A DNA stretch of 64,000 nucleotides from Candidatus Nomurabacteria bacterium (GTDB lineage Bacteria > Patescibacteriota > Minisyncoccia > Phycocordibacterales > UBA9973). The position numbers and the translations under genes are program-made. Positions within the stretch are counted from its first letter, which is position 1; the number at the start of each line of letters is the position of its first letter. This document shows positions 4,753 to 38,590 of this stretch, piece by piece. The stretch lies in contig CAWHSF010000003.1 in NCBI GenBank assembly GCA_963832025.1, forward strand, positions 207,665 to 271,664. Reading direction: 5' to 3'. The notes under the pieces are model-generated. The model did no database searches. It saw nothing but the letters and a program-made list of their open reading frames with translations, and was not told where the DNA came from.

Positions 4753-4768
4753 TTTAACCATAACTTTT

Positions 4769-6154
4769 ATGTCAAAAAGAAATTTTATACTTTTAATAAT
4801 CGTTCTCATTATCATCATCCTTGCTGTTTTTGGATTTTTGTTTTTCAACAAGCCAAGTGGTCAATCAGGAGGGAACACAACTGGCACAAATTTCTTTTCG
4901 CAATTTAATCCTTTTGCAAATGTCAAACCAAAAACACCGGTAACGACACCAGTGCAAACGCCGACAACGACACCAACGACAACTTCAACTCTTAATTTAA
5001 AACTGAAAGAAGTTTCCAGTATGCCAATAGCGGGTTTTACGATATTCAGCAAAGAAAGGTTGGTGCCAGTGGTAACAGCTACGACATCTTCAACCACCCC
5101 GCCTTCGGCACCCCTCCTTAATCAAGGAGGGGAAGGGGGTGGTAATTCTTCTTCCGCAACAAAAAAAACAACTATTAAAACAACCAAGCCAACTGCGCCA
5201 CCGACGGAAATGGCTCTAGCGTTAAGGTATGCTGCCAAGGCAACAGGAAATATTTATGAAACCTTTGCAGACACAATACAAGAAGGTCAATTTTCAACGA
5301 CAACAATCCCTGAAGTTTACGATGCTTATTTTGGAAACAACGGAAACTCGGTGGTGATGAGATACTTATCAGGAGACGAAGAAACGATTGAAACTTTTCT
5401 CGGAACATTACCAAAAGAAATTTTTGGTGCAGACACAATCGCCAACAATCAAATCACAGGGTCGTTGTTACCAAATAATATAAAAAGTATTAGTTTGTCA
5501 CCTGATACATCAAGCATGTTTTATTTATTTGACAGTGGAGACAGCATGATAGGCACAACTCTTAATTTTACAACCAATAAAAAAGTGCAAATTTTTACTT
5601 CTCCATTTACTGAATGGTCTTCCGGTTGGGGAAACAGTAAAATCATTACTCTTACCACAAAACCTACTTCGGGAATTCCCGGATATGTTTATGAAATGGA
5701 TCAAACTGGAAAAAATTTAAACCAGACTTTGGGAAACATTAATGGGCTTACCGCCTTACCTAGCCCGGACGGAAAATTTATACTTTATGGTGACAATAGT
5801 TTAAATTTAAATATTTACAATAAAAGCACCAATACTTCGACTTTGTTGGGAGTTAAAACTCTACCAGAAAAATGTGTCTGGAACAGTGGAAGTACCACAG
5901 TGTATTGCGCTGTACCAAAAGCTATCCCAGTAAACCAGTATCCGGATGCTTGGTATCAAGGAGAAGTTTCTTTTAATGATCAATTTTGGAAAATTAATGT
6001 TGGGACCGGAAACACCACTATGCTTGTAGACCCGATCACAATGCCCGGAGGGCAAGAAATTGATGGAATCAAACTTGCGGTAGATAGCGCTGAAAATTAT
6101 TTATTTTTTGTAAACAAAAAAGATTCTTATCTTTGGGAATTTTCTCTTAAATAG
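4769..6154 (+). CDS. membrane-anchored exported protein with Thr/Pro-rich linker and beta-propeller-like C-terminal part (hypothetical)
   Basis: 461-aa ORF; N-terminal TM LLIIVLIIIILAVFGFLFF; TPVTTPVQTPTTTPTTT linker; TolB-like PDGKFILYGDNS segment. Confidence 0.5.
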   Translation: MSKRNFILLIIVLIIIILAVFGFLFFNKPSGQSGGNTTGTNFFSQFNPFANVKPKTPVTTPVQTPTTTPTTTSTLNLKLKEVSSMPIAGFTIFSKERLVPVVTATTSSTTPPSAPLLNQGGEGGGNSSSATKKTTIKTTKPTAPPTEMALALRYAAKATGNIYETFADTIQEGQFSTTTIPEVYDAYFGNNGNSVVMRYLSGDEETIETFLGTLPKEIFGADTIANNQITGSLLPNNIKSISLSPDTSSMFYLFDSGDSMIGTTLNFTTNKKVQIFTSPFTEWSSGWGNSKIITLTTKPTSGIPGYVYEMDQTGKNLNQTLGNINGLTALPSPDGKFILYGDNSLNLNIYNKSTNTSTLLGVKTLPEKCVWNSGSTTVYCAVPKAIPVNQYPDAWYQGEVSFNDQFWKINVGTGNTTMLVDPITMPGGQEIDGIKLAVDSAENYLFFVNKKDSYLWEFSLK

Positions 6155-10953: not shown

Positions 10954-11023
10954 TCCCGTACTAAATTTTAATTAAAACAAATGAACACTATTATTAAAAA
11001 TTTAAAATTTTAGTACCGGGATG
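10954..11023 (+). repeat. intercistronic hairpin cassette, family G copy 1 (3' arm ends on ATG 11021)
   Basis: Left arm TCCCGTACTAAATTTTA (10954-10970). Right arm TAAAATTTTAGTACCGGGA (11003-11021), followed by TG. Starts 15 nt after the dnaN stop. Confidence 0.7.
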
Positions 11024-11278
11024 ATTGAAATAAAAGATTTACTTAGTCGTTTTAGTGAAATTCTTCTAGGGGAAGAAGGGAAAAAAGAAGCTGTTAGAGA
11101 CGTAATTTCGTCTGTTATTCAGGTAAAAATAAAATCTGAAGATATAAAAATAAAAAATAATATTATTTATTTAAACATCAAACCTATTTACAAAAACGAA
11201 ATTTTTATTAAACAAGAAAAAATTTTTCTCGCACTAAAAGAAGCTCTCGGTAAAAAAGCACCAGAAAGTCTTAGGTAA
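11021..11278 (+). CDS. small protein, possibly DUF721/DciA-like
   Basis: 85-aa ORF after dnaN. The position and the C-terminal pattern (NNIIYLNIKPIYKNEIFIKQEKIFLALKEALG) resemble DUF721. Weak call. Confidence 0.35.
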   Translation: MIEIKDLLSRFSEILLGEEGKKEAVRDVISSVIQVKIKSEDIKIKNNIIYLNIKPIYKNEIFIKQEKIFLALKEALGKKAPESLR

Positions 11279-11286
11279 GACAAAAA

Positions 11287-13827
11287 CTATTGTGAAACTT
11301 TAAATACAGAATCCGTTTCACTACTATTATATTGCGTATCGTAAGAAATTATTTTTAAAGTGTTGCTTGCCTGCAGGTTCTCTAAATTTTCTGGAATGAA
11401 AGAAAAAGCAAATGGTGGAGTAATGGTTTCTTGATAAACACCATTTATATAAATATCCATTTTTTGCAACGGGAATGTACCAGAACTTGATATTTGTAGA
11501 TTTATTTTTTGTCCTGGTTGATAAACAGTCGTAGTATCTGGGGAAACGACTGAGACCACAGGTTTGTTTTGGTCGGTATGAATGTTGTCCGCGGCTACTG
11601 GTTTGTCAGCAAGCGTTACTATCGGGTACTTACTTTTATTTTGTGCCCACCAATTTTGTACCGGTACATCCCAGTGTTCAAATTGTGGATCGCTTGCCGG
11701 GTTTACCGGTGGTGGCCCTAAAATATCATTTCTATCCACCCAATATAAAATTGAATGTACATTTGTTATCACTTTTTCTTCCAAAGTTTGACTTGGTGTA
11801 TCGGAAGTAGCTAAAAGTCCGGTAGTTTTATCTATGAAAAAATTATCATTGCCCTCCCAGAAGCCTCGCAAAGCAGGTTTTACAAGCATCGGATTTGTGG
11901 TTAAATCCGGTTTTTCAAATGTTTCTTTTGGGAGGGTTGCCAAAGCTTGTGTCATAAACTGATTCCAGATGGGTCCGGCAACTGCAACTCCGCCGTTTTT
12001 CATTGGAGTATCGTTATTATTTCCTGCCCAAACTCCTACAACTAAAGAAGGAGTGTAGCCAATTGTCCAAGCGTCTTTATCATTATTTGTCGTTCCTGTT
12101 TTAACTGCGACATCTTTACCGGGAATATATAAAGCCGAGTGTACTCCAAAAGTTGGTTCACGGGCTGTTTCATCGGAAAGAATATCCGAAATAGTTAAAG
12201 CGGTATTCTTGGGCAGAACTTGTTGCAGAGTTGGCTGATATTGCTCTAAAATTTTTCCGGTCAAATCTTGAACCTGCAAGATTCCAGTGTAAGGGTTCCT
12301 TAACCCATCATTTGCGAACACTCCGTAAGCTGAGGTCATATCCAAAAGAGAAACTTCTCCACCTCCGATAACCAAAGTGAGTCCATACTGCTCCGCATCA
12401 CCCAGGGTGCTAATACCCATGTTTTCCGCTGTTTGCAGAGAGTTTTGTTCTCCGGTTAGGTAATAAAGTTTTACTGCCGGAATATTGATTGATTGGGCAA
12501 GTGCGTTTCTCAAACTAATTGGGCCACGATATTTTCCATCAAAATCTTGTGGCATATAGCAATCACTTTGGCTGTGACCTGGGAGTGCTTTACCATAAGC
12601 ATCACAGGTCGTTTGGAATTCTGTGGGTAAGTCAAACAGCACGGTGTCCGGAGTAAAGCCCTCATTAAAGGCTGTAGCGTAAATAAAAGGCTTAAAGGAA
12701 GAGCCTGGTTGTCTAGTGGCCGTGGCAACGTTGAAATTACCGTCTATTGTTTTATCAAAATAATCTCTTGAACCTACCATCGCCAGCACTTGTCCGGTTT
12801 TTGGGTCTATTGCCACAAGAGCGGCGTTTGATGCATTCCAAGTTTTCTCGTTCTGCAAAGCGCCATTTTTTACAATTTGTTCCGCCTGCGCCTCCAAATT
12901 GGCATCCAAGGTCGTAATAACTTTTAATCCACCGTTTTCCACCAGATCCGTGCCATATTTTTGTTCCAAGTAATCTTGAATCCAAAAAACAAAGTGCGGA
13001 GCTATTATGCCCGAGGTTGCCTGTGGAACAAAAGTTACAACTTCATTTTTTGCTTGGTCGTATTGAGCTTGTGTAATCATTTTGAGATCCAACATTCTAG
13101 ACAAGACTAAATTTTTCCTTTCATCTAGTTTATCTTTATTTTTCCCATAAGGAGAAAGAATGCTGGGGGATTGTGGGATTGATGCTAAATATGCGGCTTG
13201 CGCCAAATCCAAATCCGATGCATCAATACTAAAATAATTTTTACTGGCTGCCTCAATACCATAAATATTTCCTCCATAAGGAATTGCATTCAAATATGCC
13301 TCCAAGATGTCGTCTTTTGACATTGAATGGTCTATCTTTATTGCTAAAACCCATTCCTTGATTTTTCTGATGTAACTTCTATCCGATGTAAGCAAAGTAT
13401 TTTTTACCAATTGTTGGGTTATGGTAGAACCACCACCTCCGACTCCAATATGAAAAACATCAGAAAATGCCGCACGCAAAGTAGAGCTAATCCTAACTCC
13501 TCCCTCTGTGTAGAAATTTGAATCCTCGATTGCAATCGTTGCATTTTTAATGTTTGGGCTCATTTGAGCTAGCGGAATGTCAGTTCTTTTTACGTCGTTG
13601 TGTATATCATAAAGCAAAATTTTACCTGTTCGGTCATAAATTTGTGTGGAATTGGCAACCTTTCTGTCCGCGAAAGAATGAAAATCCGGAATCTTCAAAG
13701 AAGACAACATTATTACCACTGCTCCGGAAAATAAAATAAAAAGGCTAATGACAAATAAGGCTAAGTTTTTCAGCAACCGCTTGTTTTTATATAAATTTTT
13801 AAGTTTTCTAAAGATTTTTTTCACCAT
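11287..13827 (-). CDS. bifunctional penicillin-binding protein 1A (glycosyltransferase + transpeptidase) with C-terminal extension
   Basis: GT51 motif EDSNFYTEGG; transpeptidase SSFKP (SxxK) and KTGTT; N-terminal TM. Confidence 0.9.
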   Translation of the reverse strand: MVKKIFRKLKNLYKNKRLLKNLALFVISLFILFSGAVVIMLSSLKIPDFHSFADRKVANSTQIYDRTGKILLYDIHNDVKRTDIPLAQMSPNIKNATIAIEDSNFYTEGGVRISSTLRAAFSDVFHIGVGGGGSTITQQLVKNTLLTSDRSYIRKIKEWVLAIKIDHSMSKDDILEAYLNAIPYGGNIYGIEAASKNYFSIDASDLDLAQAAYLASIPQSPSILSPYGKNKDKLDERKNLVLSRMLDLKMITQAQYDQAKNEVVTFVPQATSGIIAPHFVFWIQDYLEQKYGTDLVENGGLKVITTLDANLEAQAEQIVKNGALQNEKTWNASNAALVAIDPKTGQVLAMVGSRDYFDKTIDGNFNVATATRQPGSSFKPFIYATAFNEGFTPDTVLFDLPTEFQTTCDAYGKALPGHSQSDCYMPQDFDGKYRGPISLRNALAQSINIPAVKLYYLTGEQNSLQTAENMGISTLGDAEQYGLTLVIGGGEVSLLDMTSAYGVFANDGLRNPYTGILQVQDLTGKILEQYQPTLQQVLPKNTALTISDILSDETAREPTFGVHSALYIPGKDVAVKTGTTNNDKDAWTIGYTPSLVVGVWAGNNNDTPMKNGGVAVAGPIWNQFMTQALATLPKETFEKPDLTTNPMLVKPALRGFWEGNDNFFIDKTTGLLATSDTPSQTLEEKVITNVHSILYWVDRNDILGPPPVNPASDPQFEHWDVPVQNWWAQNKSKYPIVTLADKPVAADNIHTDQNKPVVSVVSPDTTTVYQPGQKINLQISSSGTFPLQKMDIYINGVYQETITPPFAFSFIPENLENLQASNTLKIISYDTQYNSSETDSVFKVSQ

Positions 13828-13846
13828 AGAATTGTAACAGCAAACA

Positions 13847-13855
13847 TGGTATTAT
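13847..13855 (+). promoter_or_regulatory. extended -10 box TGgTATTAT, 7 nt before tyrS ATG
   Basis: catggtattat-tcaaact-ATG. Confidence 0.5.
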
Positions 13856-13862
13856 TCAAACT

Positions 13863-15032
13863 ATGAAAGTGATAACGGACGCGAAAAGAATAGAGGAGGT
13901 TTTGACTAAAGGAGTTGAAAACGTCTTTGTAAAAGAAGAGCTTAAGAAGAAGCTCTCTTCCGGTAAAAAACTAAAAGTATATCTAGGCATTGATCCAACT
14001 GGACCCACTCTCCACATGGGGCACGCAATACCACTGAAAAAACTACAGCAATTTCAAGAGCTTGGACACCAAGTAATTCTTTTGATGGGAGACTTTACTG
14101 CGATGATTGGAGACCCTACCGACAAGTCTTCCACCAGAAAACAACTTTCTCACAAAGAAGTTTTAAATAATTTAAAAAGATATAAAAAACAAGCTTCGAT
14201 TTTTTTGAAGTTCACAGGAGACAATAAAGCTGAATTTAAATTCAACTCCAAGTGGTTATCAAAAATGAAGTTTGAAGATGTTTTAAACTTAGCCTCAAAA
14301 ATGACAGTTGAACAAATGTTGAAGCGCGATATGTTTGTGAAGAGAAGCGAAGAAGGTAAACCAATATTTATTCATGAATTTTTATATCCTTTAATGCAGG
14401 GTTATGACAGTGTGGCCATGAAAGTGGATGTGGAAGTCGGTGGAAACGATCAAATGTTCAACATGCTTGCCGGCCGAAATCTTTCCGCGCAAATTTTAAA
14501 GAAAGACAAAGCAGTTGTTACTATGCAACTTCTTGAAGATAACACCGGCAAAAAAATGGGCAAAACAGAAGGAAATATGGTTACCTTTGAAGACTCTGCG
14601 CAAGATATGTTTGGAAAAGTGATGAGCTGGAATGACTCTTTAATTAAAAAAGGTTTTGAACTTTGTACCAATGTCGATTCTTTACTCATAGACATGAATC
14701 AAAACCCCCGCGATTTGAAAATGAAGCTTGCTTTTGAAATCGTAAAAATTTATCACGGAGAAAAAAAATCCAAAGAAGCAGAAAATATTTTTGTTAATAC
14801 ATTTCAAAAAAAAGAAGTTCCGGAAGTCGTAGAAGAAATAGAGGGCGAAGGTTTATTAACACAAATTCTTTTACAAGCAAAAATTTTTAGTTCAAACTCT
14901 GAAATACGTCGTCTGTTTGAAGCAGGAGCCATTTCTGATATGACGGAAAATAAGAAACTTTCTGCTCCTGGCGTTGTTACAAAGGGGCACGTTTATAAAA
15001 TCGGTAAACACAGATTTATAAAAATAAAATAA
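13863..15032 (+). CDS. tyrS: tyrosyl-tRNA synthetase
   Basis: GIDPTGPTLHMGH (HIGH) and KMGKT (KMSKS) motifs; C-terminal S4-like domain. Confidence 0.9.
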   Translation: MKVITDAKRIEEVLTKGVENVFVKEELKKKLSSGKKLKVYLGIDPTGPTLHMGHAIPLKKLQQFQELGHQVILLMGDFTAMIGDPTDKSSTRKQLSHKEVLNNLKRYKKQASIFLKFTGDNKAEFKFNSKWLSKMKFEDVLNLASKMTVEQMLKRDMFVKRSEEGKPIFIHEFLYPLMQGYDSVAMKVDVEVGGNDQMFNMLAGRNLSAQILKKDKAVVTMQLLEDNTGKKMGKTEGNMVTFEDSAQDMFGKVMSWNDSLIKKGFELCTNVDSLLIDMNQNPRDLKMKLAFEIVKIYHGEKKSKEAENIFVNTFQKKEVPEVVEEIEGEGLLTQILLQAKIFSSNSEIRRLFEAGAISDMTENKKLSAPGVVTKGHVYKIGKHRFIKIK

Positions 15033-15036
15033 ATAA

Positions 15037-15060
15037 AAAAGGCCTTCGAAAAGGTCTTTT
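15037..15060. terminator. bidirectional stem-loop terminator
   Basis: AAAAGGCCTT-cgaa-AAGGTCTTTT, with an A-run on one side and a T-run on the other, between convergent tyrS and the minus-strand genes. Confidence 0.6.
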
Positions 15061-15071
15061 TTATTTATTAA

Positions 15072-15203
15072 CTAACTATCTTTGTCTGGATCTTCTTCGT
15101 CTAGACCAAAATCCATATCCGGCATATCTTCTAGTGGTTCATCTTCATCATCGTCACTCATTTTAAAACCACCTTGCAATTCATCTTCTTCGTCGTAACT
15201 CAT
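15072..15203 (-). CDS. hypothetical highly acidic 43-aa micro-protein
   Basis: Hand translation: MSYDEEDELQGGFKMSDDDEDEPLEDMPDMDFGLDEEDPDKDS. Lies downstream of ruvC on the same strand. No homology recognised. Confidence 0.25.
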   Translation of the reverse strand: MSYDEEDELQGGFKMSDDDEDEPLEDMPDMDFGLDEEDPDKDS

Positions 15204-15299
15204 ATTAAATTTTTATTTTAAAATTTTTTAGCGACCTTTTGATAATTTCCTCCTTTGTATCAAAACGGAGAACGCTTTGCAAGAGAATTTGTGGATAAC

Positions 15300-15780
15300 T
15301 TATCCTCGTAAGCAGGCGAAAGCTGTCAGGGCGATAGCAATAGCATCCAACTCATCATCACTCTTCTTGGAATTGTCTATTTCAACCAGAATTTTCACCA
15401 TTTTTATGATTTGTTCCTTGCTCGCTCTACCGTAACCGGTCGTGGCAATTTTAATTTGTGGCGGAGAAGCTTCAAAAACCTTAAGTCCCGCACAGATAGC
15501 TTCATAAATCACTACCCCGCGTGCTTCTGCCACGTGCATGACAGTTTTTTGATTGGTAGTGAGAAATAAAGTTTCAATGGAAAGAATTTCTGGTTTGTAT
15601 TTTTTAACAATCATTTTTACTTCTTCGCCAATTAAATGCAATCGTTCACTAAAATTTAATTTGGCAGAAGTTTTGAAACATTCCGAAAAAAGCACAACTT
15701 CTCTTTTTGTCCCCTTTCCTTTTTTCTAAGATTGCTATTCCCAATCTTTCAAACCCAGGATCTATTCCTAAAATTTTCAT
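15300..15780 (-). CDS. ruvC: Holliday junction resolvase RuvC, interrupted by a +1 frame change in a T6/A6 run (15720-15725)
   Basis: The N-terminal piece MKILGIDPGFERLGIAILEK (ATG 15780) carries the catalytic Asp. The remainder (ORF 15300-15695) is in the +1 frame. The ATG overlaps the yebC TGA (ATGA). Confidence 0.75.
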
Positions 15781-16388
15781 GTTAAGTTTACCCCCACACC
15801 TATTTTAAAGCAAAAATAGGTGTGGGATTCTGCATTAGTGTAAACTTCCTGCACGTCGTCATTTTCTTCCAATTCTTCCACAAGCTTATCCAACAATTCT
15901 AAATCTTGGTCGGAGAGGGAAATTGTATTTTTTGGGATCCATCCATCAGTTTTTTCCCCGCCCGCATCGCCCTGCGAAGCATGGCGGGCAGGTTTTTGGA
16001 ATCCCCAAGTGACCGAACCGATACCTCCTAAAAGGAAACCATTTTTTGTTAAAATGTGTTTTATATCTTGGGCGGTTCTGTTTTTACTATCGGTTAAAGT
16101 TTCAATAATTATTCCGACTCCGCCCGGACCATATGTTTCATAAACAATTGCATCCATGTGCGCTCCCGGTTCACTTGCTTTTTTTATCGCCCTTTCAATA
16201 TTTTCCGCCGGCATATTTACTTTTTTTGCTTTTTCAATTGCGGCGCGTAAGCCGGGAGAGTCTTTTCCGCCGGAAAGTTTTGCTTCCACAGAAATAAAAC
16301 GTACAAGCTTGGAAAAGATTTTACTTTTCTTAGCATCCGTCATTCCTTTTTGTCTCTTAATTTGTGTCCAACTATTATGACCACTCAT
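15777..16388 (-). CDS. yebC: YebC/PmpR family transcriptional regulator
   Basis: MSGHNSWTQIKRQKG... N-terminus is typical of YebC. Carries an internal GC-rich insert and a repeat-encoded C-terminal tail. Confidence 0.85.
   Translation of the reverse strand: MSGHNSWTQIKRQKGMTDAKKSKIFSKLVRFISVEAKLSGGKDSPGLRAAIEKAKKVNMPAENIERAIKKASEPGAHMDAIVYETYGPGGVGIIIETLTDSKNRTAQDIKHILTKNGFLLGGIGSVTWGFQKPARHASQGDAGGEKTDGWIPKNTISLSDQDLELLDKLVEELEENDDVQEVYTNAESHTYFCFKIGVGVNLT
15781..15830 (-). repeat. family E hairpin repeat forming the last ~16 codons of yebC
   Basis: Coding strand reads CCCACACCTATTTTtgctttAAAATAGGTGTGGGGGTAAACTTAA. The right arm plus flank match the copy at 37431-37470. Confidence 0.65.
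15956..15992. repeat. GC-rich hairpin segment in-frame inside yebC
   Basis: ccccGCCCGCatcgccctgcgaagcatgGCGGGCagg encodes ...KPARHASQGDAGG... inside an otherwise AT-rich gene. Confidence 0.5.
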
Positions 16389-16412
16389 ATTAGTTTGTCT
16401 TGTTTTTCTTTT

Positions 16413-17438
16413 TTAAGGTCGAAATCCCAAATGTTCATAAGCTTTGTCAGTTGCCACTCTTCCTCGCGCAGTACGTTCTAGCAACCCAAGCTGAATCAAA
16501 TATGGTTCAATTACTTCTTCCACCGTGGCTTCTTCTTCGGACATGGCCGCGCCGATAGTTTTTAATCCGACTGGCCCGCCATTAAATTTTTCAATTAATA
16601 TTTCCAAAAATTTTCTGTCGGAAGAATTCAGGCCGATATCATCAATGGCGAGCATGTTCAATGCTTCTTTGACTGTTTTTTGGTCTAAGTTTTTTTTATG
16701 GACTTGTGCAAAGTCACGGCAACGTTTCAAAAAATAATTTGCGGTACGTGGAGTGAAACGACTTCGTTTAGCGATTTCTTTTAATGCACCTTCGTCCAAC
16801 TCCGTTTTCAAAAGTTTGCTGGACCTTTCTATAATTTTTGCGATTTCTTCATTAGAATAAAATTCTAAGCGAAAAACTCCTCCACCAAAACGAGAACGAA
16901 GCGGGGAAGACACCAAAGCTACACGAGTCGTCGCTGCGATTAAAGTAAAAGGTGGTAAGTCTAGTTGGATGGTGCGAGCAGAAGGGCCTTTGCCGATAAT
17001 AATATCTAAGACGCCGGATTCCATAGCCGGATAGAGTATTTCTTCAACCATTTTATTTAGTCGGTGTATTTCGTCAATAAAAAGAATGTCGCCAGCAGTC
17101 AAATTCGTCAAAATAGAGGCTAAATCACCAACTTTTTCAATTGCGGGGCCGGAAGTAATTTTCATTTGCTTGCCAGTTTCTTTGGCAATCAAATGTGCCA
17201 AGGTTGTTTTTCCCAATCCCGGTGGCCCATAAAAAAGTATGTGTTCCGGAATATGCCCACGCTCTTCAGCTGCGCGCAGTAAGATTTTCACATTGTCTTT
17301 TATGTGTTTTTGGCCGATATACTCATCCCAGTGTGTTGGACGAAGAGTTTGGTCTAGAAAAGATTCATCAATATTTGAAGTTTTCTCGAGCTCCGGGGTA
17401 TTTACTTCTTTTGTTTTTTTACTTGACATTGTTTTCAT
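16413..17438 (-). CDS. ruvB: Holliday junction branch migration helicase RuvB
   Basis: GPPGLGKTTLA Walker A; DEIHRL Walker B; RuvB C-terminal winged helix. Confidence 0.95.
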   Translation of the reverse strand: MKTMSSKKTKEVNTPELEKTSNIDESFLDQTLRPTHWDEYIGQKHIKDNVKILLRAAEERGHIPEHILFYGPPGLGKTTLAHLIAKETGKQMKITSGPAIEKVGDLASILTNLTAGDILFIDEIHRLNKMVEEILYPAMESGVLDIIIGKGPSARTIQLDLPPFTLIAATTRVALVSSPLRSRFGGGVFRLEFYSNEEIAKIIERSSKLLKTELDEGALKEIAKRSRFTPRTANYFLKRCRDFAQVHKKNLDQKTVKEALNMLAIDDIGLNSSDRKFLEILIEKFNGGPVGLKTIGAAMSEEEATVEEVIEPYLIQLGLLERTARGRVATDKAYEHLGFRP

Positions 17439-17699
17439 AATATGCTATATTACTAGTGTTAGTAAGTTTATTAACACGCTATGCACACTGCTATCAACAT
17501 TATAGCACTTGCTTAGTTTTGCATATAGTACAATTGGTTTTATAGAGAAAGCATTAATCTCTAAGCAATCAGCCATCGGTTATACGAATTTGCATAGGAC
17601 GTTTTGGTTCTATTTATAGCTCACTGGAACTATCCTATAATTTTTTGTTACTTTTGGGGCTCAGCTTCGAAAGGATTGTTTGGAGATTAATGCTTTTTT

Positions 17700-19397
17700 T
17701 TACTCCTCATTTAGATCTACTACGCTTTGCACTTCTTCGTAGGAAGTAATTCCGCTTAGCATTTTTACTAGTCCGTCTTGGCGCATGGAAAGGATGCCTT
17801 GAGTACTGGCGACTTTTTTAATTTCGCGCTCACTCGGATTTTCCGGAATTATTTTTTCTATGGCAGCATCCGTTTTTATTGCTTCAAAAATACCGATTCT
17901 TCCTTTGTAACCAGTCATATTGCATTTCTCACAACCAACTGCGGTAAATAATTTTATTGGAGCTTCGGGATTTATATTATAATCGGAAATTTTTTTACCC
18001 TCTGATGTCATTCCATCAATAATTGTTTTTAAAATTTTTATTTCTTGTTCAGTTGTCTGTTTTTCTTTTTTACAAACAGGACATAATTTTCGCACCAATC
18101 TTTGCGCGATGGAAAGAGTCAAAGCAGAGACGAGAATTTTCGGATTGACTCCAAGATCAATCAGACGGGGAATGACTCCGGCGGCGTTGTTGGTGTGTAA
18201 AGTTGAGAAAACGATATGTCCGGTCAAGGCCGATTGCACAGCGGTTTCCGCTGTTTCGTTGTCACGAATTTCTCCGACCATTACTACATCCGGGTCTTGG
18301 CGGAGCGCCGAACGCAATCCTTCCGCGAAAGTATAGCCCTTTACTTCGTTGGTTTGAGTTTGAGTTATTCCGGGAAGATGGTATTCAACCGGGTCTTCAA
18401 TCGTTATTATTTTTATTTCCGGCGAATAGATTCTTCTTAGAAAAGCGTAAAGAGTGGTGGTTTTTCCAGAACCAGTCGGTCCAGTGACTAAAATTAAGCC
18501 ATTTGGTTTTAAAATTTCTTCTTCGATTACAGAAAAAAGGCGAGTTTCTATTCCCAGCTCTTCAAGTTTTACTTGAATGGATTTTGGATCCAAAATACGC
18601 ATAACAATTGATTCACCGTATGCTCCGGGAATCAAAGAACTACGAATGCTTATTTCTTCACTTCCTTCTTCAATATTGAAACGCCCATCCTGTGCAATCG
18701 TGGAAGTTAATTTCATTCCGGACAAAAGTTTAATTCGCGAATTTAGTAAATGGTAAACATCCAAGCCAAAAAAATTCACGTCTTGTAGAACACCATCCAG
18801 ACGCAGACGTAATCTCCCTCGTTCTTTTTCCGGTTCAATGTGTATATCAGAAGCTTGAATAGCAATTGCTCCGGCCAAAATTATTTCAAGTAAGCGAGAA
18901 ATTTTATGAATTTTATTTCCTTCCAACGCCTCCGTCACCATTTTTTGAATGTCTTGTATTTTTTCTATTTTTTTAACTGTTTCTCGCAAAATATCTCCGG
19001 CAATATCTATACCTCCCACTCGGGAACTTTCTGCCATTGAGATTTCTTTATATCTATCCCAGATTTTATTGATACTTCCACTTGAAGCCATATAAAAAGT
19101 AGGAATTAAATTTTTCCTCTCCATGTCTTCTTTTAAACTTCGCAAAAGGTCTTCCGATGGTGAACGTACCGCGATAAAAATATTTTTCCCAAAAAGTTTA
19201 AAGGGTCCGATATTTTTTTCTCGAGAATCTTTTTCGGAAATTGCTCGGAGGGATTCGTTGTCTATGCCGAGGCGAGATAAGTCAATATAAGGGAGACCAT
19301 ATTTTGATTCTGCCAGGGTTGCCACCAATTGTTCTTCTTCTCGTTTATGCAAATCATCCAGTTGCTTGTTTTGTTTTTCTTCATTAAATAAAGCCAT
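17700..19397 (-). CDS. pilB: type IV pilus assembly / type II secretion ATPase (PilB/GspE family)
   Basis: GPTGSGKTTTLYA Walker A; GEIRD and TGH boxes; tetracysteine CPVC...CEKC. Confidence 0.85.
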   Translation of the reverse strand: MALFNEEKQNKQLDDLHKREEEQLVATLAESKYGLPYIDLSRLGIDNESLRAISEKDSREKNIGPFKLFGKNIFIAVRSPSEDLLRSLKEDMERKNLIPTFYMASSGSINKIWDRYKEISMAESSRVGGIDIAGDILRETVKKIEKIQDIQKMVTEALEGNKIHKISRLLEIILAGAIAIQASDIHIEPEKERGRLRLRLDGVLQDVNFFGLDVYHLLNSRIKLLSGMKLTSTIAQDGRFNIEEGSEEISIRSSLIPGAYGESIVMRILDPKSIQVKLEELGIETRLFSVIEEEILKPNGLILVTGPTGSGKTTTLYAFLRRIYSPEIKIITIEDPVEYHLPGITQTQTNEVKGYTFAEGLRSALRQDPDVVMVGEIRDNETAETAVQSALTGHIVFSTLHTNNAAGVIPRLIDLGVNPKILVSALTLSIAQRLVRKLCPVCKKEKQTTEQEIKILKTIIDGMTSEGKKISDYNINPEAPIKLFTAVGCEKCNMTGYKGRIGIFEAIKTDAAIEKIIPENPSEREIKKVASTQGILSMRQDGLVKMLSGITSYEEVQSVVDLNEE

Positions 19398-19454
19398 TTA
19401 CGGTAAATTATAGCTCATTTTAACTGCAAAAGATATTATAAAAATATTAAATTA

Positions 19455-19463
19455 TGTTAATAT
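19455..19463 (+). promoter_or_regulatory. extended -10 box TGtTAATAT, 6 nt before tsaE ATG
   Basis: tatgttaatat-caaaag-ATG. Confidence 0.5.
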
Positions 19464-19469
19464 CAAAAG

Positions 19470-19937
19470 ATGACTAGCGGAATAAAAAAAATATCGAAAA
19501 GCGTAAAAGAAACAAGTAAAATAGCAAAAATATTTATTGAAGAAGTTCTGAAAAATAGCAAAACCGACCAAGGCGCTTTTGTGGTTGGCTTGGTTGGGAA
19601 TTTAGGGGCAGGCAAGACAGCTTTTGCGCAAGCTGTCGCCAAACACCTGGGAGTAAAAAATAAAGTTAGTAGTCCAACTTTTGTAATTATGAAAAAATAT
19701 CCCCTAAAAAAAAATCAGAAAAATAAAAAATATGACTTTTTATTTCACTTAGATGCTTATCGCCTAAAAAATGAGCAAGAATTATTGTATTTGGGGTGGC
19801 AAGAAATTTTAGACAACGAGAAACACCTTGTCTTTATTGAATGGCCGGAAAATGTATCCAAAGTTATGCCAAAAAATATCAAGTATATTCATATTTCCGA
19901 CCAAAAAGATGGGCAAAAAGTTTTCAAATTTAAATGA
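19470..19937 (+). CDS. tsaE: tRNA t6A37 biosynthesis ATPase TsaE
   Basis: P-loop GNLGAGKTAF; SPTF motif; HLDAYRL. Confidence 0.8.
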   Translation: MTSGIKKISKSVKETSKIAKIFIEEVLKNSKTDQGAFVVGLVGNLGAGKTAFAQAVAKHLGVKNKVSSPTFVIMKKYPLKKNQKNKKYDFLFHLDAYRLKNEQELLYLGWQEILDNEKHLVFIEWPENVSKVMPKNIKYIHISDQKDGQKVFKFK

Positions 19938-19943
19938 TATAAT
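19935..19943 (+). promoter_or_regulatory. extended -10 box TGaTATAAT upstream of polA
   Basis: Overlaps the tsaE stop codon. Followed by the family H hairpin and then ATG 19993. Confidence 0.4.
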
Positions 19944-19947
19944 TCCA

Positions 19948-19981
19948 CTTGTTGGACAACAATTTCCCGTTGTTCGACAAG
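19948..19981. repeat. family H palindromic repeat (degenerate copy) in polA leader
   Basis: CTTGTtggACAACaatttcccGTTGTtcgACAAG; compare 39233-39268 and 53515-53551. Confidence 0.55.
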
Positions 19982-19992
19982 AAAGACAAAAA

Positions 19993-22434
19993 ATGAAAAC
20001 GGAAAATAAAAATTCAACTAAAACAATGGTCCTATTAGATGCTCACGCGATAATACATCGCGCCTATCATGCGTTGCCGGAGTTTTTATCATCCAGCGGT
20101 GAACCTACTGGCGCTCTGTACGGGCTTTCCAGCATGTTGATGAAAATTATCACCGAACTCAAACCGGACTATATTGCTGCTTGTTATGATTTGCCGCAAA
20201 AAACTTTTCGTCACGAAGCTTATGATGCCTACAAAGCTGGCCGGGCAAAAACAGATGAAGCACTGGTGGTGCAACTAAAAAAATCCAGACAAATTTTTGA
20301 AGCTTTCAACATACCTATTTATGATGCCCCTGGTTTCGAGGCGGATGATGTTTTGGGAACAATCGTTGAAAAATATAAAAAAGACAAAAGCATCAATATC
20401 ATTATCGCTTCTGGAGACATGGATACGATGCAGTTGGTTGATGATAAGAAAGTTCAAGTTTACACTCTAAAAAAAGGAATCAATGAAACCATTTTATATG
20501 ACGAAGATGCAGTAATGGAACGTTTCCATTTCAAACCGAAACTTTTGCCGGACTACAAAGGTTTGCGTGGCGACCCATCGGATAACATTATTGGCATAAA
20601 AGGCATTGGAGAAAAAACAGCGGAAAATTTAATTGTCAATTTTGGAACCATCGAGGAAATATATAAAAAAATAAAAAAAGACAAAGAAGCTTTCGTGAAA
20701 GCAAACATAAGCCTCAGAATAATTGAATTATTGAAAGAGAACGAAGAGGAAGCTCTGTTTTCAAAAACATTAGCGACCATTCGCAAAGATGCGCCGATAA
20801 ATTTTACATTACCGGCAAAAACTTTTTGGGAAAACATTGACTCTAAAAAAGTGGAACAAGTTTTCATGGATTTTGAGTTTAAAAGTTTGATGGCTCGCTT
20901 GAAGAATTTTTTTAGCGAGAATTCGACGGGTGTTGCTCAGAGGAGTCTTCGCAACGACCAGAAAGAACTTGCCCTTCCAGGACGGGGTGCGAACGACGGC
21001 GAGCAATATCCACCGAATTCTCAAATCATTAATCCTCAAAAGTTGCAAGAAGCCAGCATTGTTCTTTGGCTCATCAATTCCGATATTTCTACTCCTGGCT
21101 TAGAAGATATGTATTTCTTTGCAAAGACTGAGTCTTTTGATGTGGCTTATGAGTACATTTTTAAACAGCTAAAAGAAAGAAAGTTAGATAAAGTATATGA
21201 AGAAATCGAAAAACCGATTATTGGTGTCGTAAAAAAGATGGAAGATTTTGGAATTCTGATAGATAAAAAATATTTTGAAAAATTATCTCTTGAATACCAC
21301 AAAGAATTGGATATTTTGACCAAAAACATTTACAAAATGGCTGGAACAGAATTTAATATTAATTCTCCAAAACAGCTAGGCGAAATTCTTTTTGGTAAGC
21401 TTGGCATGAAATCTGGTAAGAAAAAAAGTGCCAATGGTAGTTTTTCCACCAAGGTTTCCATTCTGGAAGACCTTGCCGAAGAAAATGAAATTATTAAAGA
21501 AATTTTAGCTTACAGAGAGTTACAGAAATTGCTTTCTACCTACGTTGATGTCATTCCAAAAATGGCAGGGCCAGATGGACGACTGCATTCAAAATTTATA
21601 CAAAATGCCACTACAACTGGCAGGTTTTCTTCAATTGACCCAAACTTGCAAAATTTACCAATTAAAACAGAATTAGGTAGAAGAATCCGTGGTGGTTTCG
21701 TAGCTTCCAAAAATCATAAGCTAGCAGCTTTTGATTATAGCCAAATTGAATTACGGGTGGCAGCGATACTTTCCGGAGACAAAAACATGACTGAAATATT
21801 CCGTGACCGCAAAGACATTCATGCCGGAGTCGCCTCTTTTGTTTTTGGTGTGCCGATAGAGCGTGTTGATAGTGAAATGCGTCGCCGAGCAAAAGTCATC
21901 AACTTTGGCATTATTTACGGCATGGGGGTTTCTGCCTTACGAAAAAATCTGGGAGGTACCCGTGAAGAAGCGCAAAAATTTTACGATAATTATTTTAATC
22001 AATTTTCTGGAGTGCGAGATTATTTAGAAAGCGTGAAAATGTTTGCTGCTAAAAATTCCTTTACAGAGACATTGTTTGGTCGTAGGCGTTACTTCCCAAA
22101 TATCAATTCCCGAATTCCTTTTTTGAAAAACACGGCTGAACGTACTGCGACCAATGCTCCACTGCAAGGCACAGCCGCTGATATTATCAAACTTGCTATC
22201 AGATACGCTGAAGAAGATTTAAATAAAAAAGGATTGCTTTCGAAAGTTCATCTCGTGCTTCAAATCCATGATGAACTGGTTTACGAAATAGAAGATGATG
22301 TTTTAGAAGAGGCTGATAAAATAATAAAGCAGGCGATGGAAGAGGTGCTAGAAAGATCATATTTGCATTACAAAACAGACATTCCTTTACTGGTTCGCTC
22401 TGGTTTTGGTGACAATTTTGGGGAAGTAAAATAA
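19993..22434 (+). CDS. polA: DNA polymerase I (5' nuclease + polymerase domains)
   Basis: 5'-nuclease N-terminus (LLDAHAIIHRAYHAL); polymerase motifs DYSQIELRV and QIHDELV. The ORF is open from 19828, but ATG 19993 follows tsaE. Confidence 0.9.
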   Translation: MKTENKNSTKTMVLLDAHAIIHRAYHALPEFLSSSGEPTGALYGLSSMLMKIITELKPDYIAACYDLPQKTFRHEAYDAYKAGRAKTDEALVVQLKKSRQIFEAFNIPIYDAPGFEADDVLGTIVEKYKKDKSINIIIASGDMDTMQLVDDKKVQVYTLKKGINETILYDEDAVMERFHFKPKLLPDYKGLRGDPSDNIIGIKGIGEKTAENLIVNFGTIEEIYKKIKKDKEAFVKANISLRIIELLKENEEEALFSKTLATIRKDAPINFTLPAKTFWENIDSKKVEQVFMDFEFKSLMARLKNFFSENSTGVAQRSLRNDQKELALPGRGANDGEQYPPNSQIINPQKLQEASIVLWLINSDISTPGLEDMYFFAKTESFDVAYEYIFKQLKERKLDKVYEEIEKPIIGVVKKMEDFGILIDKKYFEKLSLEYHKELDILTKNIYKMAGTEFNINSPKQLGEILFGKLGMKSGKKKSANGSFSTKVSILEDLAEENEIIKEILAYRELQKLLSTYVDVIPKMAGPDGRLHSKFIQNATTTGRFSSIDPNLQNLPIKTELGRRIRGGFVASKNHKLAAFDYSQIELRVAAILSGDKNMTEIFRDRKDIHAGVASFVFGVPIERVDSEMRRRAKVINFGIIYGMGVSALRKNLGGTREEAQKFYDNYFNQFSGVRDYLESVKMFAAKNSFTETLFGRRRYFPNINSRIPFLKNTAERTATNAPLQGTAADIIKLAIRYAEEDLNKKGLLSKVHLVLQIHDELVYEIEDDVLEEADKIIKQAMEEVLERSYLHYKTDIPLLVRSGFGDNFGEVK
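20917..21022 (+). repeat. family A palindrome-ended repeat, in-frame inside polA
   Basis: TIR GAGAATTCG...CGAATTCTC. The core matches the reverse complement of 24739-24830. Confidence 0.8.
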
Positions 22435-36660: not shown

Positions 36661-36670
36661 TACTTAAATT

Positions 36671-36698: not shown

Positions 36699-36711
36699 AT
36701 TAGAGAGAATA

Positions 36712-37059: not shown

Positions 37060-38590
37060 ATGGCAAAAGAAGAAGGCGGAAGGGAGAAAAACAAGGAAAC
37101 AATAGTCAGATTTGAAAATGTCTCATTTGAATGGGGAGTAACATAAGCCTATTTTAGAAGAGGTGAGCTTCACCATTCGGCGAGGCATGAAACTCACGTT
37201 GATGGGGCAAAATGGCGCTGGAAAAAGCACCATTTTTAGTTTAATCTCTGGGCTATCGGTCCCTGAGTCTGGAATAATCAACGTTGTTAAAGGGGTGAGT
37301 ATCGCAAACTCCTTGCAAGTAATTCCTCGCGACCAAATGGATTCTACTGTACGAGAATTTTTCGCAAATTGTTTTAAGGAAAAAGTTTATGATATTGACC
37401 CACGGATTGATGACATTTTAGAAGTAGTAAACCCCCACACCAAAAATTTTGGTGTGGGGGTAAATCTTAAGGGTCACGCGAAAATTCACGACAGAAAAAT
37501 AAATACTTTCTCTGGTGGGCAACAAGCGCGACTGCTTTTGGCTTCCGCCCTCATTCGAGATCCAGATTTACTATTATTGGATGAACCAACAAACAATTTA
37601 GACAAAGCCGGAATTGCTCACCTCACAAATTTTCTAGTAAATTACAAAAAAACAGTTCTAGTTATTTCCCACGATGCGGAATTTTTAAATGCTTTCACTG
37701 AAGGAGTGCTTTATTTAGATGTTTATACAAAAAAAGTTGAACAATATGTCGGTAACTATTTTAATGTGATGAAAGATATTACTGCGCGAGTAGAAAAAGA
37801 AAATATGAAGAACGCACAACTTCAAAAGGAAATTCAAGCCAAGAAAGACCAAGCAAATGTGTTTGCATATAAAGGCGGACGTTTGAGATTGGTAGCAAAG
37901 CGAATGCGAGAAAAGGCTGAAGAATTGGAAGAGGAAATTGTGGACGTTCGAAAAGAAGATAAAGCCATCAGGCCTTTTGTTATTCCTTCACAGCCAGACT
38001 TGATCGGGGAAATTTTAAACATCTCTTCTTTTACCACGATGGTGAATGGAAAAATTGTAAAACGGAAAGCACGTATTTCTTTAAATAAAAAACAACATTT
38101 GCTTTTACAAGGACCAAACGGAATTGGAAAAACAACACTCTTGGAAAGACTGGCGAGCGGAAAAGCCGAAGGAGAGAAAGTAAAAGAGGGAATACGTATC
38201 GGATATTATAGGCAAGATTTTTCCACGCTCAATTTTGAACATTCAGTTTATGAATCTTTGGCAGAAGCGATGATTGAGGGTGGAGAAAAATTAAATGAGG
38301 AACATATGCGTTCAGTTGCCGCGGGATTTTTAATTACTGGAGAATTTATTCGCACAAAAATTAAAGATTTATCCGAAGGACAAAAAGGGCTAGTGGCTTT
38401 TGCGAGATTGGTTTTACAAAAACCCGGACTCCTCATTTTGGATGAGCCAACAAACCATATAAATTTTCGTCACTTGCCAATAATCGCAGAAGCATTAGAT
38501 AAATATGCCGGTGCAATGATTCTCGTTTCCCACGTGCCCGAATTCGTCAAACAAATTAGGATTGATGAAGTACTTGATCTAGAAAAGTAG
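37060..38590 (+). CDS. ABC-F family ATPase, N-terminus displaced by a +1 frame change near 37138-37144
   Basis: MAKEEGGREKNKETIVRFENVSFEWGV (ATG 37060) stops at 37144. The +1 frame continues HKPILEEVSFTIRRGMKLTLMGQNGAGKST. Second module GPNGIGKTT. No TM domains. Confidence 0.8.
37431..37470 (+). repeat. family E hairpin repeat, in-frame inside the ABC-F gene
   Basis: ACCCCCACACCAAAA-a-TTTTGGTGTGGGGGT plus the flank AAATCTTAA; encodes NPHTKNFGVGVNLK. Confidence 0.7.

What the first reader, a model, noticed from the sequence alone, without database searches (positions are those of the whole stretch)
15781..15830. Hairpin element creates the C-terminal tail of YebC and the ATGA junction with ruvC
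YebC normally ends shortly after the DDVQ-VY-N motif. Here 16 extra residues (SHTYFCFKIGVGVNLT) are encoded entirely by a family E hairpin (CCCACACCTATTTT...AAAATAGGTGTGGG). The ORF then stops in a TGA that overlaps the ruvC ATG. The element appears to have inserted between the two genes and been absorbed into the upstream ORF.
Basis: partly seen in the sequence, partly recalled or inferred. Interest (0 to 1): 0.6.

Follow-up and report, generated by a model that had tools for sequence, protein, structure and literature searches.

The report
Mobile hairpin fused onto yebC's end
A tiny mobile palindromic DNA element that landed between yebC and ruvC in a Nomurabacteria-like genome has lost its left edge together with the yebC stop codon, so YebC now reads through the hairpin and gains a 16-residue tail. 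The same element family sits in frame inside housekeeping genes of many uncultured bacteria.

Summary
A perfect 14-bp hairpin (15793-15806 / 15813-15826) lies inside the last 16 codons of yebC (minus strand). The yebC TGA overlaps the ruvC ATG. All 120 closest YebC proteins stop aligning at query residue 187, and 77 of 78 related genomes stop two residues after the N of the DDVQ-VY-N motif (74 read ...TNAE-stop).

The hairpin belongs to a dispersed family: 10-nt inverted ends CCCCCACACC...GGTGTGGGGG, a variable A/T-rich core, and a 4-bp target duplication (usually TNNA). One related genome (L019) has the same element in the yebC-ruvC spacer with the stop intact and TAAA on both sides. Other relatives show the empty site.

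In the window the left TAAA, two C's of the left arm and the stop codon are missing, a 5- or 11-nt deletion. That is what fuses the ORF to the element.

A second copy in the window is a clean 33-nt in-frame insert in an ABC-F gene; 116 of 120 homologs read EVVNLKG there. Metagenomic copies sit in frame in ftsZ, enolase, murein ligase and other genes.

Caveat: the window carries two single-base insertions, in ruvC and ABC-F, that are absent from independent contigs of the same strain. The stop loss could not be independently verified.

The parts
15828..16388 (-). Native yebC (YebC/TACO1 family), residues 1-187, ending ...DDVQEVYTNAE
   Evidence: Pfam PF20772 (E 1e-22) and PF01709 (E 2e-29). Aligns to PDB 1lfp and 1kon. 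Relatives end exactly at this point.
15780..15827 (-). 16-codon tail SHTYFCFKIGVGVNLT, produced by read-through into the element
   Evidence: ORF list. Absent from all 120 homologs and 78 related loci. AlphaFold2 pLDDT is below 50 for residues 189-203, with no secondary structure.
15777..15779 (-). New yebC stop codon TGA, overlapping the ruvC ATG (15778-15780) as ATGA
   Evidence: A natural ATGA overlap also exists in relative L079.
15791..15826 (.). Remnant of the palindromic element. It has one full 10-nt end (15791-15800), an A/T-rich core with loop (15801-18), and a truncated end lacking 2 nt (15819-15826). The perfect 14-bp stem is 15793-15806 / 15813-15826.
   Evidence: Compared with the complete copy in L019 and with the family consensus.
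15787..15790 (-). The surviving copy of the 4-bp target-site duplication (TAAA on the minus strand). The yebC-side copy is missing.
   Evidence: L019 has TAAA on both sides, and the empty site in L007 has one TAAA. 50 of 97 family members have identical 4-nt flanks, against 9.1 expected from shuffling.
15781..15786 (-). Native yebC-ruvC spacer (CTTAAC), now coding for the end of the tail
   Evidence: Sequence. Spacers of 1-28 nt are typical in relatives.
15300..15780 (-). ruvC, split into two frames (15649-15780 and 15300-15695) by one extra base at about 15703
   Evidence: ORFs. Pfam RuvC matches the downstream piece. Relatives read ...GDKKEKVLFSECF in one frame. The independent contig L253 lacks the extra base.
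37432..37464 (+). Second copy of the family. It is a 33-nt in-frame insertion (29-nt element plus a duplicated TAAA at 37461-37464; the original TAAA is at 37428-37431) in an ABC-F ATPase gene, read as PHTKNFGVGVN.
   Evidence: Among 120 homologs, 116 read EVVNLKG or an equivalent without the insert. Two carry the intact insert and two a decayed one (P0127, P0128).
37060..38590 (+). ABC-F gene hosting the second copy. Its N-terminus is frameshifted in the window by an extra A at about 37140.
   Evidence: L252 is identical over 3458 nt except for that base, and encodes an intact 509-aa protein.

Best explanation
The hairpin is a copy of a very small non-autonomous mobile palindrome. It is MITE-like in anatomy and REP-like in size. 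Its 10-nt terminal inverted repeats are CCCCCACACC / GGTGTGGGGG, its core is variable and A/T-rich, and it inserts into TNNA (less often CNNG) tetranucleotides with a 4-bp duplication.

A copy inserted into a TAAA in the short yebC-ruvC spacer, or into the TAAA formed by a TAA stop plus an A. A later small deletion of 5 or 11 nt removed the yebC stop codon, the left target copy and two bases of the left arm.

Neither arm contains a stop codon in any frame. In the frame produced by the deletion the core is also open. Translation therefore runs through the element, the surviving TAAA and the native spacer to a TGA that overlaps the ruvC ATG. This adds 16 residues that are predicted to be disordered.

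Shown: the family exists, its target duplication, the filled and empty sites, the uniqueness of the tail, and the reading frame. Inferred: the order of events, the deletion, and the agent that moves the element (no transposase was identified).

Also inferred is a functional effect. Ribosomes finishing yebC now melt a -26 kcal/mol hairpin that ends 12 nt before the ruvC ATG and terminate on ATGA. This would couple ruvC translation to yebC and could offset occlusion of the ruvC start by the inserted hairpin.
For: - Hairpin and ORF geometry.
- Tail absent from relatives.
- Filled site with an intact stop and a TAAA duplication in L019, and empty sites in L007, L008, L024, L028, L038.
- Second copy in the window with the same end-plus-flank GGTGTGGGGGTAAA, read in the same frame (PHT...GVGVN).
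- ABC-F homologs give the exact empty site EVVN|LKG in 116 of 120. A strain-identical independent contig carries the insert.
- Of 97 low-GC copies, 50 have identical 4-nt flanks, against 9.1 (maximum 18) after shuffling the flanks. T..A flanks number 68-72 of 97.
- 16 copies lie inside long ORFs. 14 of those 16 have (length + 4) divisible by 3, and 11 of 16 are read as xPHT...GVGVx.
- Host genes include ftsZ, enolase, a Mur ligase, xseA, serS, yjeF and pilC.
- A second filled-versus-empty pair, an exact 11-aa insert, is seen in a YjeF whose relatives are named Deltaproteobacteria or Thermodesulfobacteriota.
- Members of 97-134 nt share only the ends and have perfect 4-nt duplications.
- The other two frames hit stops inside this copy's core (read from the sequence).
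Against: - No autonomous element or transposase with these ends was found in about 1.2 Mb of held sequence.
- A 26-30-bp element is too short for a conventional two-end synaptic complex, so the mode of movement is unknown.
- The element in L019 and in the window is 39/40 identical, while the flanking yebC is only about 70% identical in DNA. The data do not say whether the two insertions are orthologous or independent.
- The stop loss rests on a single assembly, and that assembly has at least two single-base insertions relative to independent contigs of the same strain.
- No independent contig covering the junction could be retrieved.
- Nothing shows that the tail is translated or has any effect.
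Confidence: 0.7

Rival explanations
1. Assembly artefact. The element really lies in the spacer downstream of an intact yebC stop, as in L019. The loss of 5-11 nt at its left edge would then be a consensus error in the deposited contig.
For: The window has one extra base in ABC-F (about 37140) and one in ruvC (about 15703) relative to Logan contigs L252 and L253. Those contigs are otherwise identical over 3458 nt and 4693 nt (0 and 1 mismatches), and both extra bases break conserved ORFs. The 203-aa protein is on record only from one NCBI/ENA contig of 430,556 nt.
Against: The known discrepancies are single-base insertions, not multi-base deletions. Most other long ORFs in the window are intact. 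Neither the 187-aa form nor any other complete YebC of this strain is on record, so there is no positive evidence for an intact stop.
Confidence: 0.2
2. The hairpin is a resident regulatory structure of the yebC-ruvC operon, such as a terminator, attenuator or mRNA-stabilising stem-loop. On this view it is conserved by descent and is not a mobile insertion.
For: It forms a strong RNA stem. The same core sequence is present at the same junction in L019 despite about 70% flanking identity. That pattern could reflect selection.
Against: The element is absent from the junction in the other related loci examined, where spacers are commonly 1-28 nt. No U-tract follows the stem, and the terminator scan does not list it. 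There is no Rfam match. Copies with the same ends and 4-nt duplications occur in unrelated genes and contigs.
Confidence: 0.04
3. The read-through is a selected adaptation. Losing the stop restores or tightens translational coupling of ruvC after the hairpin occluded its start, or the tail itself modifies YebC function.
For: The stem ends 12 nt upstream of the ruvC ATG, and the new stop forms ATGA. An ATGA overlap also occurs naturally in L079. In-frame copies persist and decay slowly in ABC-F orthologs at 88-95% identity. Translated copies can therefore be tolerated for long periods.
Against: Only this one genome has the tail. The tail is predicted to be disordered. One frame in three would read through by chance. 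ruvC as given is frameshifted, although that is probably an error.
Confidence: 0.1

Closest known systems
Rickettsia palindromic elements (RPEs)
   Same: RPEs are palindromic repeats that insert into protein-coding genes in frame and are translated as part of otherwise conserved proteins (review PMC10969869, section 4.2). The family here does the same in ABC-F, YjeF, FtsZ, enolase and other genes.
   Different: RPEs are about 150 bp and are confined to Rickettsia. These elements are mostly 26-50 nt, show a clear 4-bp target duplication, and occur in Patescibacteria and in at least one Deltaproteobacteria/Thermodesulfobacteriota-like contig. Sequence similarity to RPEs was not tested.
Bacterial MITEs (for example Correia/NEMIS, ERIC, QMITE1 of Coxiella)
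   Same: Both have terminal inverted repeats, target-site duplications, no coding capacity of their own and multiple dispersed copies. Both occasionally form in-frame fusions or C-terminal remodelling of host ORFs (PMC5896051, title and abstract).
   Different: Typical MITEs are larger. Here the commonest forms are little more than the two 10-nt ends joined by 5-12 nt, with rarer members of 97-134 nt that share only the ends. No parent insertion sequence was found.
REP elements / REPINs mobilised by RAYT transposases
   Same: Both are 20-40-nt GC-stemmed palindromes present in many copies (abstracts of PMC3733652 and PMC3116915).
   Different: Most REPs carry a GTAG or CGTC tag at one end (PMC3733652 title and abstract). 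They are by definition extragenic, and in REPINs the proposed replicative unit is a doublet (PMC3116915). The elements here are singlets, have variable duplicated flanks and are often intragenic.
Small dispersed repeats (SDRs) of cyanobacteria (Elhai et al. 2008, Genome Res 18:1484, cited as ref. 43 in PMC3116915)
   Same: From my own recollection of that paper, which is not held in the library: repeat families of 21-27 nt proposed to be mobile, some matching the ends of larger mobile elements. That is the nearest precedent for a mobile unit of this size.
   Different: The hosts differ (cyanobacteria) and so do the sequences. I could not check whether SDRs make a 4-bp duplication or favour one reading frame.
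Intrinsic (Rho-independent) terminators
   Same: Both are a GC-based stem-loop located at the end of a gene.
   Different: No U-tract follows the stem (GGUAAACUUAAC), the terminator scan does not call it, and it now lies inside an ORF.

Membership tests
MITE (miniature inverted-repeat transposable element) | Conserved terminal inverted repeats | tested here: met
   CCCCCACACC / GGTGTGGGGG at the two ends in both window copies (one end truncated by 2 nt in the yebC copy), in L019, and in at least 120 metagenomic loci. This conservation was imposed by the search pattern. The members of 97-134 nt share only these ends.
MITE (miniature inverted-repeat transposable element) | Target-site duplication, shown by filled and empty sites | tested here: met
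   50 of 97 copies have identical 4-nt flanks, against 9.1 expected (maximum 18 in 2000 shuffles). Filled and empty pairs exist for the yebC-ruvC spacer, ABC-F and YjeF.
MITE (miniature inverted-repeat transposable element) | A cognate autonomous insertion sequence with the same ends | tested here: inconclusive
   No pair of ends 0.6-5 kb apart with matching flanks enclosed a candidate transposase in about 1.2 Mb of held loci.
REP / REPIN | Conserved GTAG or CGTC tetranucleotide tag at one end (PMC3733652) | tested here: not met
   The flanks are variable and duplicated: TAAA, TTTA, TTGA, TCAA, TATA, TGAA, CAAG and others.
REP / REPIN | Extragenic location | tested here: not met
   16 of 97 copies lie inside long ORFs. 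A further 19 are read into by an upstream ORF.
REP / REPIN | A RAYT (Y1 transposase) gene in the same genome | not tested
   Only 64 kb of the genome is available, and its ORFs were not screened for transposases.
Rickettsia palindromic elements | In-frame insertion into conserved protein-coding genes | tested here: met
   ABC-F has an 11-aa insert and YjeF an 11-aa insert. 14 of 16 intragenic copies preserve the frame.
Rickettsia palindromic elements | About 150-bp elements of the ten RPE families, in Rickettsia | tested here: not met
   Element size is 25-50 nt, the range the search pattern allowed, and hosts are Patescibacteria and Deltaproteobacteria-like MAGs. RPE description is from PMC10969869.
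Intrinsic terminator | GC-rich stem followed directly by a U-tract | tested here: not met
   The consensus scan of 12000-20000 does not list it. The sequence after the stem is GGTAAACTTAAC.
YebC/TACO1 family (host gene) | N-terminal and second/third-domain profiles above the Pfam cut-offs | tested here: met
   PF20772 scores 80.8 bits (cut-off 36) and PF01709 scores 102.8 bits (cut-off 27). About 60 residues of the middle domain are missing relative to 1lfp and 1kon, as in the whole clade.
Known RNA families (Rfam 15) | Match at or above the gathering score | tested here: not met
   Only five tRNAs were found in the window, and nothing at 15780-15830 or 37430-37465.

The most novel reading that the evidence does not exclude
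The CCCCCACACC...GGTGTGGGGG hairpins are an undescribed mobile element found in more than one phylum. At about 26-33 bp they would be among the smallest elements known to generate a target-site duplication. They would move as a hairpin rather than as a conventional two-ended transposon. Their stop-free arms let them persist inside essential genes as a stereotyped (V/I/L)(N/D/H/Y)-PHT-x-GVGV-(N/D/E/K) loop. They would therefore act as a general source of protein indels and C-terminal extensions in streamlined uncultured bacteria, of which the YebC tail is one example.
Probability: 0.35. Interest if true: 0.75.

Novelty: new variant of a known kind. Interest (0 to 1): 0.55.

Why it matters
For this locus, the result explains an odd YebC C-terminus. 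It also gives a clean two-step example (insertion, then loss of the stop) of a selfish hairpin being turned into coding sequence and creating an overlapping stop/start with the next gene.

The wider implication is that small, AT-rich genomes of uncultured bacteria (Patescibacteria and at least one Deltaproteobacteria-like lineage) carry a REP-sized element that makes target duplications. It is repeatedly tolerated in frame inside core genes such as ftsZ, enolase, tRNA synthetase, ABC-F and Mur ligase genes.

This has three consequences:
- Annotation: unexplained 10-12-residue inserts and tails in MAG proteins may be these elements.
- Phylogenomic alignments: the inserts add non-homologous columns.
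- Mobile DNA biology: the lower size limit of mobile DNA, and the enzyme that moves it, become questions that can be tested directly.

Tried and rejected
- **Terminator reading:** no U-tract, and the consensus scan does not list it.
- **Known RNA family:** no Rfam match.
- **Viral contigs:** the scan gave 51 hits. Nearly all are a different high-GC phage hairpin (aaaaagg-CCCCCACACC...GGTGTGGGGG-cc followed by T-rich sequence) with no TNNA duplication, so they were set aside.
- **Autonomous parent element:** no convincing pair of distant ends was found. Most apparent long pairs had a complete short hairpin at one end.
- **Independent copy of the junction:** exact-product look-ups for YebC (203 and 188 aa), RuvB (341 and 338 aa) and the next gene upstream found nothing. 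TyrS gave contig L253, which stops at window position 15714, 79 nt short of the hairpin.
- **Programmed frameshift in ruvC at the A-rich site:** rejected. The required shift is +1, relatives are in frame, and the independent contig lacks the extra base.
- **CRISPR-repeat resemblance** (GGGGG-TAAAC): rejected because the copies seen are solitary, not arrays, and the flank varies as a duplication.
- **Literature:** six searches found no description of such elements in the Candidate Phyla Radiation or Parcubacteria, and no bacterial repeat with these end sequences. This covers the held library only.
- **Structure prediction:** it added only that the tail is low-confidence. The alignment had just 19 sequences and the mean pLDDT was 62.8.

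Full report
**1. What is in the sequence**

Both genes lie on the minus strand.
- yebC is 15777-16388 (203 aa).
- An ORF beginning MKILGIDPGFERLG, the RuvC N-terminus, is 15649-15780.
- The two overlap as ATGA.
- A perfect 14-bp inverted repeat with a 6-nt loop occupies 15793-15806 / 15813-15826.
- As RNA the region folds at -25.8 kcal/mol (z = -4.9; 0 of 200 shuffles fold as well). As DNA it folds at -13.9 kcal/mol (z = -6.4).
- The hairpin lies within the last 16 codons of yebC (15780-15827, SHTYFCFKIGVGVNLT).

**2. Where YebC normally ends**

The protein matches both YebC/TACO1 Pfam domains. It aligns to solved YebC structures up to DDVQEVYTNAE.
- The 120 best of about 8000 database relatives are named Nomurabacteria, Paceibacterota or Minisyncoccia where a name exists. 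All cover only 92% of the query, i.e. residues 1-187, and most are 178 aa long.
- In an alignment of 18 of them, 17 end ...TNAE. One (P0087) has an unrelated long tail.
- In 78 related genome loci with the motif, 74 read N-A-E-stop and 77 have exactly two residues after N.
- The ruvC start follows within 1-28 nt in 39 of 68 loci and overlaps the stop in one more (L079). The rest contain insertions.

The tail is therefore unique to this sequence.

**3. What the hairpin is**

*A second copy in the window.* It lies at 37432-37460, with sequence CCCCCACACC-AAAAATTTT-GGTGTGGGGG. It shares GGTGTGGGGGTAAA with the yebC copy and is flanked by TAAA on both sides. It sits inside an ABC-F gene, where it reads EVVN-PHTKNFGVGVN-LKG. 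This is the same frame as the YebC tail (sHT...GVGVN).

*ABC-F homologs.* Among 120 homologs:
- 116 read EVVNLKG or an equivalent with no such insert;
- P0121 (100% identical) and P0123 (95%) carry the 11-aa insert;
- P0127 and P0128 carry a decayed version, PHTKFSVRVN.

This is an exact 33-nt insertion, made of a 29-nt element plus a duplicated TAAA. It has survived translated through some divergence.

*The same element at the yebC-ruvC junction of a relative.* Locus L019 reads GAATAG-TGTTAAA[CCCCCACACCTATTCTTTTGCTTTAAAATAGGTGTGGGGG-TAAA]CTCTTATTATG. Its stop is intact and TAAA lies on both sides. L007, L008, L024, L028 and L038 show the uninterrupted spacer, for example GAATAGTGTTAAACTTTTAATATTATG.

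Among the 97 copies on low-GC contigs:
- 50 have identical 4-nt flanks, against 9.1 (maximum 18) when right flanks are shuffled among loci;
- the flanks are TNNA in about 70% and CNNG in about 14%;
- TAAA and TTTA are the commonest.

*Larger members.* Members of 97-134 nt with perfect 4-nt duplications share only the ends. Two relatives (L035 with 68 nt, L052 with 35 nt) have copies at the same spot just after the ruvC stop. This suggests the elements shrink in place.

*Copies inside genes.*
- 16 copies lie inside long ORFs, and 14 of those 16 preserve the frame.
- 11 of the 16 are read as xPHT...GVGVx.
- Host genes include ftsZ, enolase, a Mur ligase, xseA, serS, yjeF, pilC, a radical-SAM gene and a DHH phosphoesterase.
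- For the YjeF host (L184), the closest named relatives are Deltaproteobacteria or Thermodesulfobacteriota MAG proteins, and they lack exactly the 11 inserted residues. The family is therefore not restricted to Patescibacteria.

*Other checks.* Nothing matches Rfam. The hairpin has no U-tract and is not called as a terminator. Most hits in viral contigs are a different, high-GC phage hairpin.

**4. How the tail arose**

The family rule is flank-NNNN, CCCCCACACC...GGTGTGGGGG, NNNN-flank. In the window:
- The ruvC-side end is complete: GGTGTGGGGG, then TAAA, then the native spacer CTTAAC, then ATG.
- The yebC side reads GCAGAAT|CCCACACC. The stop codon, the left TAAA and two C's are missing.

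Insertion alone would have kept the stop in the left duplicate, so a second event is required. There are two possible ancestors:
- GAA-TAA-A|CCCCC..., with the target overlapping a TAA stop as in the many relatives that read GAATAAA. This needs the loss of AAACC (5 nt).
- An L019-like sequence, GAATAGTGTTAAACCCCC... This needs the loss of 11 nt.

Both give the observed frame. In that frame the core (TAT TTT TGC TTT AAA ATA) is open. The other two frames meet TAG or TAA inside the core (read).

The 16 residues map as follows:
- S188-G199 come from the stem-loop.
- V200 and N201 come from the end of the element plus TAAA, with the C of N201 from the native spacer.
- L202, T203 and the TGA come from the native spacer.

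AlphaFold2 gives pLDDT below 50 and no secondary structure for residues 189-203. The alignment was shallow and the mean pLDDT was 62.8.

**5. Likely consequence (inference)**

The stem ends 12 nt before the ruvC ATG and would partly occlude its initiation region. With the stop gone, ribosomes completing yebC unwind the stem and terminate on ATGA, which couples ruvC translation to yebC. Whether this was selected or is a neutral accident cannot be decided from one genome.

**6. Reliability of the window**

- Logan contig L252 (run ERR11523672) is identical to window 36581-40039 except for one extra A in the window at about 37140. That base frameshifts the ABC-F N-terminus.
- Contig L253 equals window 11021-15714 with one mismatch and one gap. 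The window has an extra base at about 15703 that splits ruvC. All relatives are in frame at that point.
- The window therefore carries at least two single-base insertions that are probably errors.
- L253 stops 79 nt short of the hairpin, and no other independent contig could be retrieved.
- The 203-aa product is on record only from one NCBI/ENA contig of 430,556 nt. The 187-aa form is not on record.

A multi-base deletion is a different class of discrepancy, but I put about 0.2 on the fusion being an artefact.

**7. An open point**

The element in L019 and in the window is 39/40 identical, whereas yebC is about 70% identical in DNA. L019 ranks only 26th among the relatives. There are two possibilities:
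- The same subfamily inserted independently into this hot spot. Several other palindromes occupy the spacer in other relatives.
- An old insertion is held by selection or conversion.

The data do not decide between them.

**8. Comparison with what is known**

- The behaviour is closest to Rickettsia palindromic elements, which are in-frame, translated palindromic inserts (PMC10969869).
- The anatomy is that of a MITE: inverted ends, a target duplication and no coding capacity.
- The size is that of a REP. However, the element lacks the GTAG/CGTC tag, is not extragenic and is a singlet rather than a doublet (PMC3733652, PMC3116915).
- The cyanobacterial small dispersed repeats of Elhai et al. 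2008 (ref. 43 of PMC3116915) are, from my recollection, the nearest precedent for a mobile unit this small. That paper is not held.
- Six searches found no description of such elements in Candidate Phyla Radiation genomes, nor of these end sequences as a bacterial repeat.

**9. Verdict**

- As a single locus it is a tidy but modest case of a mobile hairpin being taken into a coding sequence.
- The family behind it is REP-sized, makes a target duplication, tolerates being translated in frame and occurs in more than one phylum. That family is the more interesting result, and it appears undescribed in the literature I could search.

Noticed in passing
window 15649-15780 and 15300-15695 (about 15703): ruvC is split into two frames by one extra base: the coding strand reads AAAAAGAGAAG where the independent contig L253 has AAAAAAGAAG. 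About 60 relatives are in frame there, so this is probably an assembly error and not a pseudogene or a programmed frameshift.
   Followed up: yes
window 37060-37146 / 37163-38590 (about 37140): The ABC-F N-terminus is frameshifted by an extra A (GGAGTAACAT versus GGAGTACAT in contig L252). L252 is otherwise identical over 3458 nt and encodes an intact 509-aa protein.
   Followed up: yes
window 15953-15995 (inside yebC): A 36-nt GC-rich imperfect palindrome encodes PARHASQGDAGG at an indel hot spot of YebC. Relatives have nothing there (178-aa forms) or other versions (PARNASHGDAGG, PARTTDAVQSSG, PACAGG). It looks like a second, different palindromic element absorbed in frame.
   Followed up: partly
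ABC-F homologs P0123, P0136, P0141, P0162, P0172, P0223, P0232 (site equivalent to window about 37470): Two codons after the PHT...GVGV insert, other homologs carry different 8-10-aa GC-rich inserts (PARLSHSGG, PPRLGEAG, PPSRLVEAG, LPANSRAG). This surface loop is a recurrent landing site for several element families.
   Followed up: partly
L004, L039, L058 (yebC-ruvC spacer, locus coordinates about 3030-3130): A different hairpin (GCCTGCCCCG...CGGGGT) lies after the yebC stop. It is followed by a duplicate of about 19 nt of the yebC 3' end, including a stop codon, as if the element brought or duplicated a replacement gene end.
   Followed up: no
L003, L067, L076, L014, L002; L013, L023, L034 (yebC-ruvC spacer): The spacer is a hot spot in relatives. 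L003 has TACCAAGGGGAACCCTTGGTA twice and L067 once. L076 has a GC palindrome with a 20-bp stem, and other hairpins occur elsewhere. In L023 an ORF with a GIY-YIG-like N-terminus (FYYTYVLKSEKDGKLYTGST) lies there; L013 and L034 share its opening bases.
   Followed up: no
L035 2008-2075 and L052 3573-3607: Copies of the same CCCACACC family lie immediately after the ruvC stop in two relatives, at the same position with a TTAT duplication. One is 68 nt and the other 35 nt, which suggests internal deletion in place.
   Followed up: partly
L184 2572-4284 and homologs P0241-P0261: A YjeF gene, closest to Deltaproteobacteria/Thermodesulfobacteriota MAG proteins, carries the same 11-aa PHTKSFGVGV insert. 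It also has two other variable inserts (LTGGDKPLPYEG and PLPKGGKGG-type). The right-hand duplicate of the target has drifted at a synonymous site (TAAA to TGAA).
   Followed up: partly
yebC clade (alignment A1; window 15777-16388): YebC in this clade (178 aa) lacks about 60 residues of the middle domain present in Aquifex, E. coli and Coxiella YebC (PDB 1lfp, 1kon, 4f3q). A short variable linker takes their place.
   Followed up: no
viral contigs L203, L211, L213, L215-L222, L224-L226, L231, L233, L236, L239, L241, L243-L247: A conserved phage hairpin shares the same 10-nt arms by coincidence but has a GC-rich loop, GG/CC stem extension and an A/T run, i.e. terminator-like. It is unrelated to the low-GC family.
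   Followed up: partly
window 5091-5142, 35562-35597, 55852-55908, 60936-60970 / 61093-61127: Further GC-rich hairpins in a 37% GC sequence. One lies in the span of the 4691-6154 open frame. One is very stable (-35 kcal/mol). A duplicated 16-bp-stem hairpin lies near tRNA genes.
   Followed up: no
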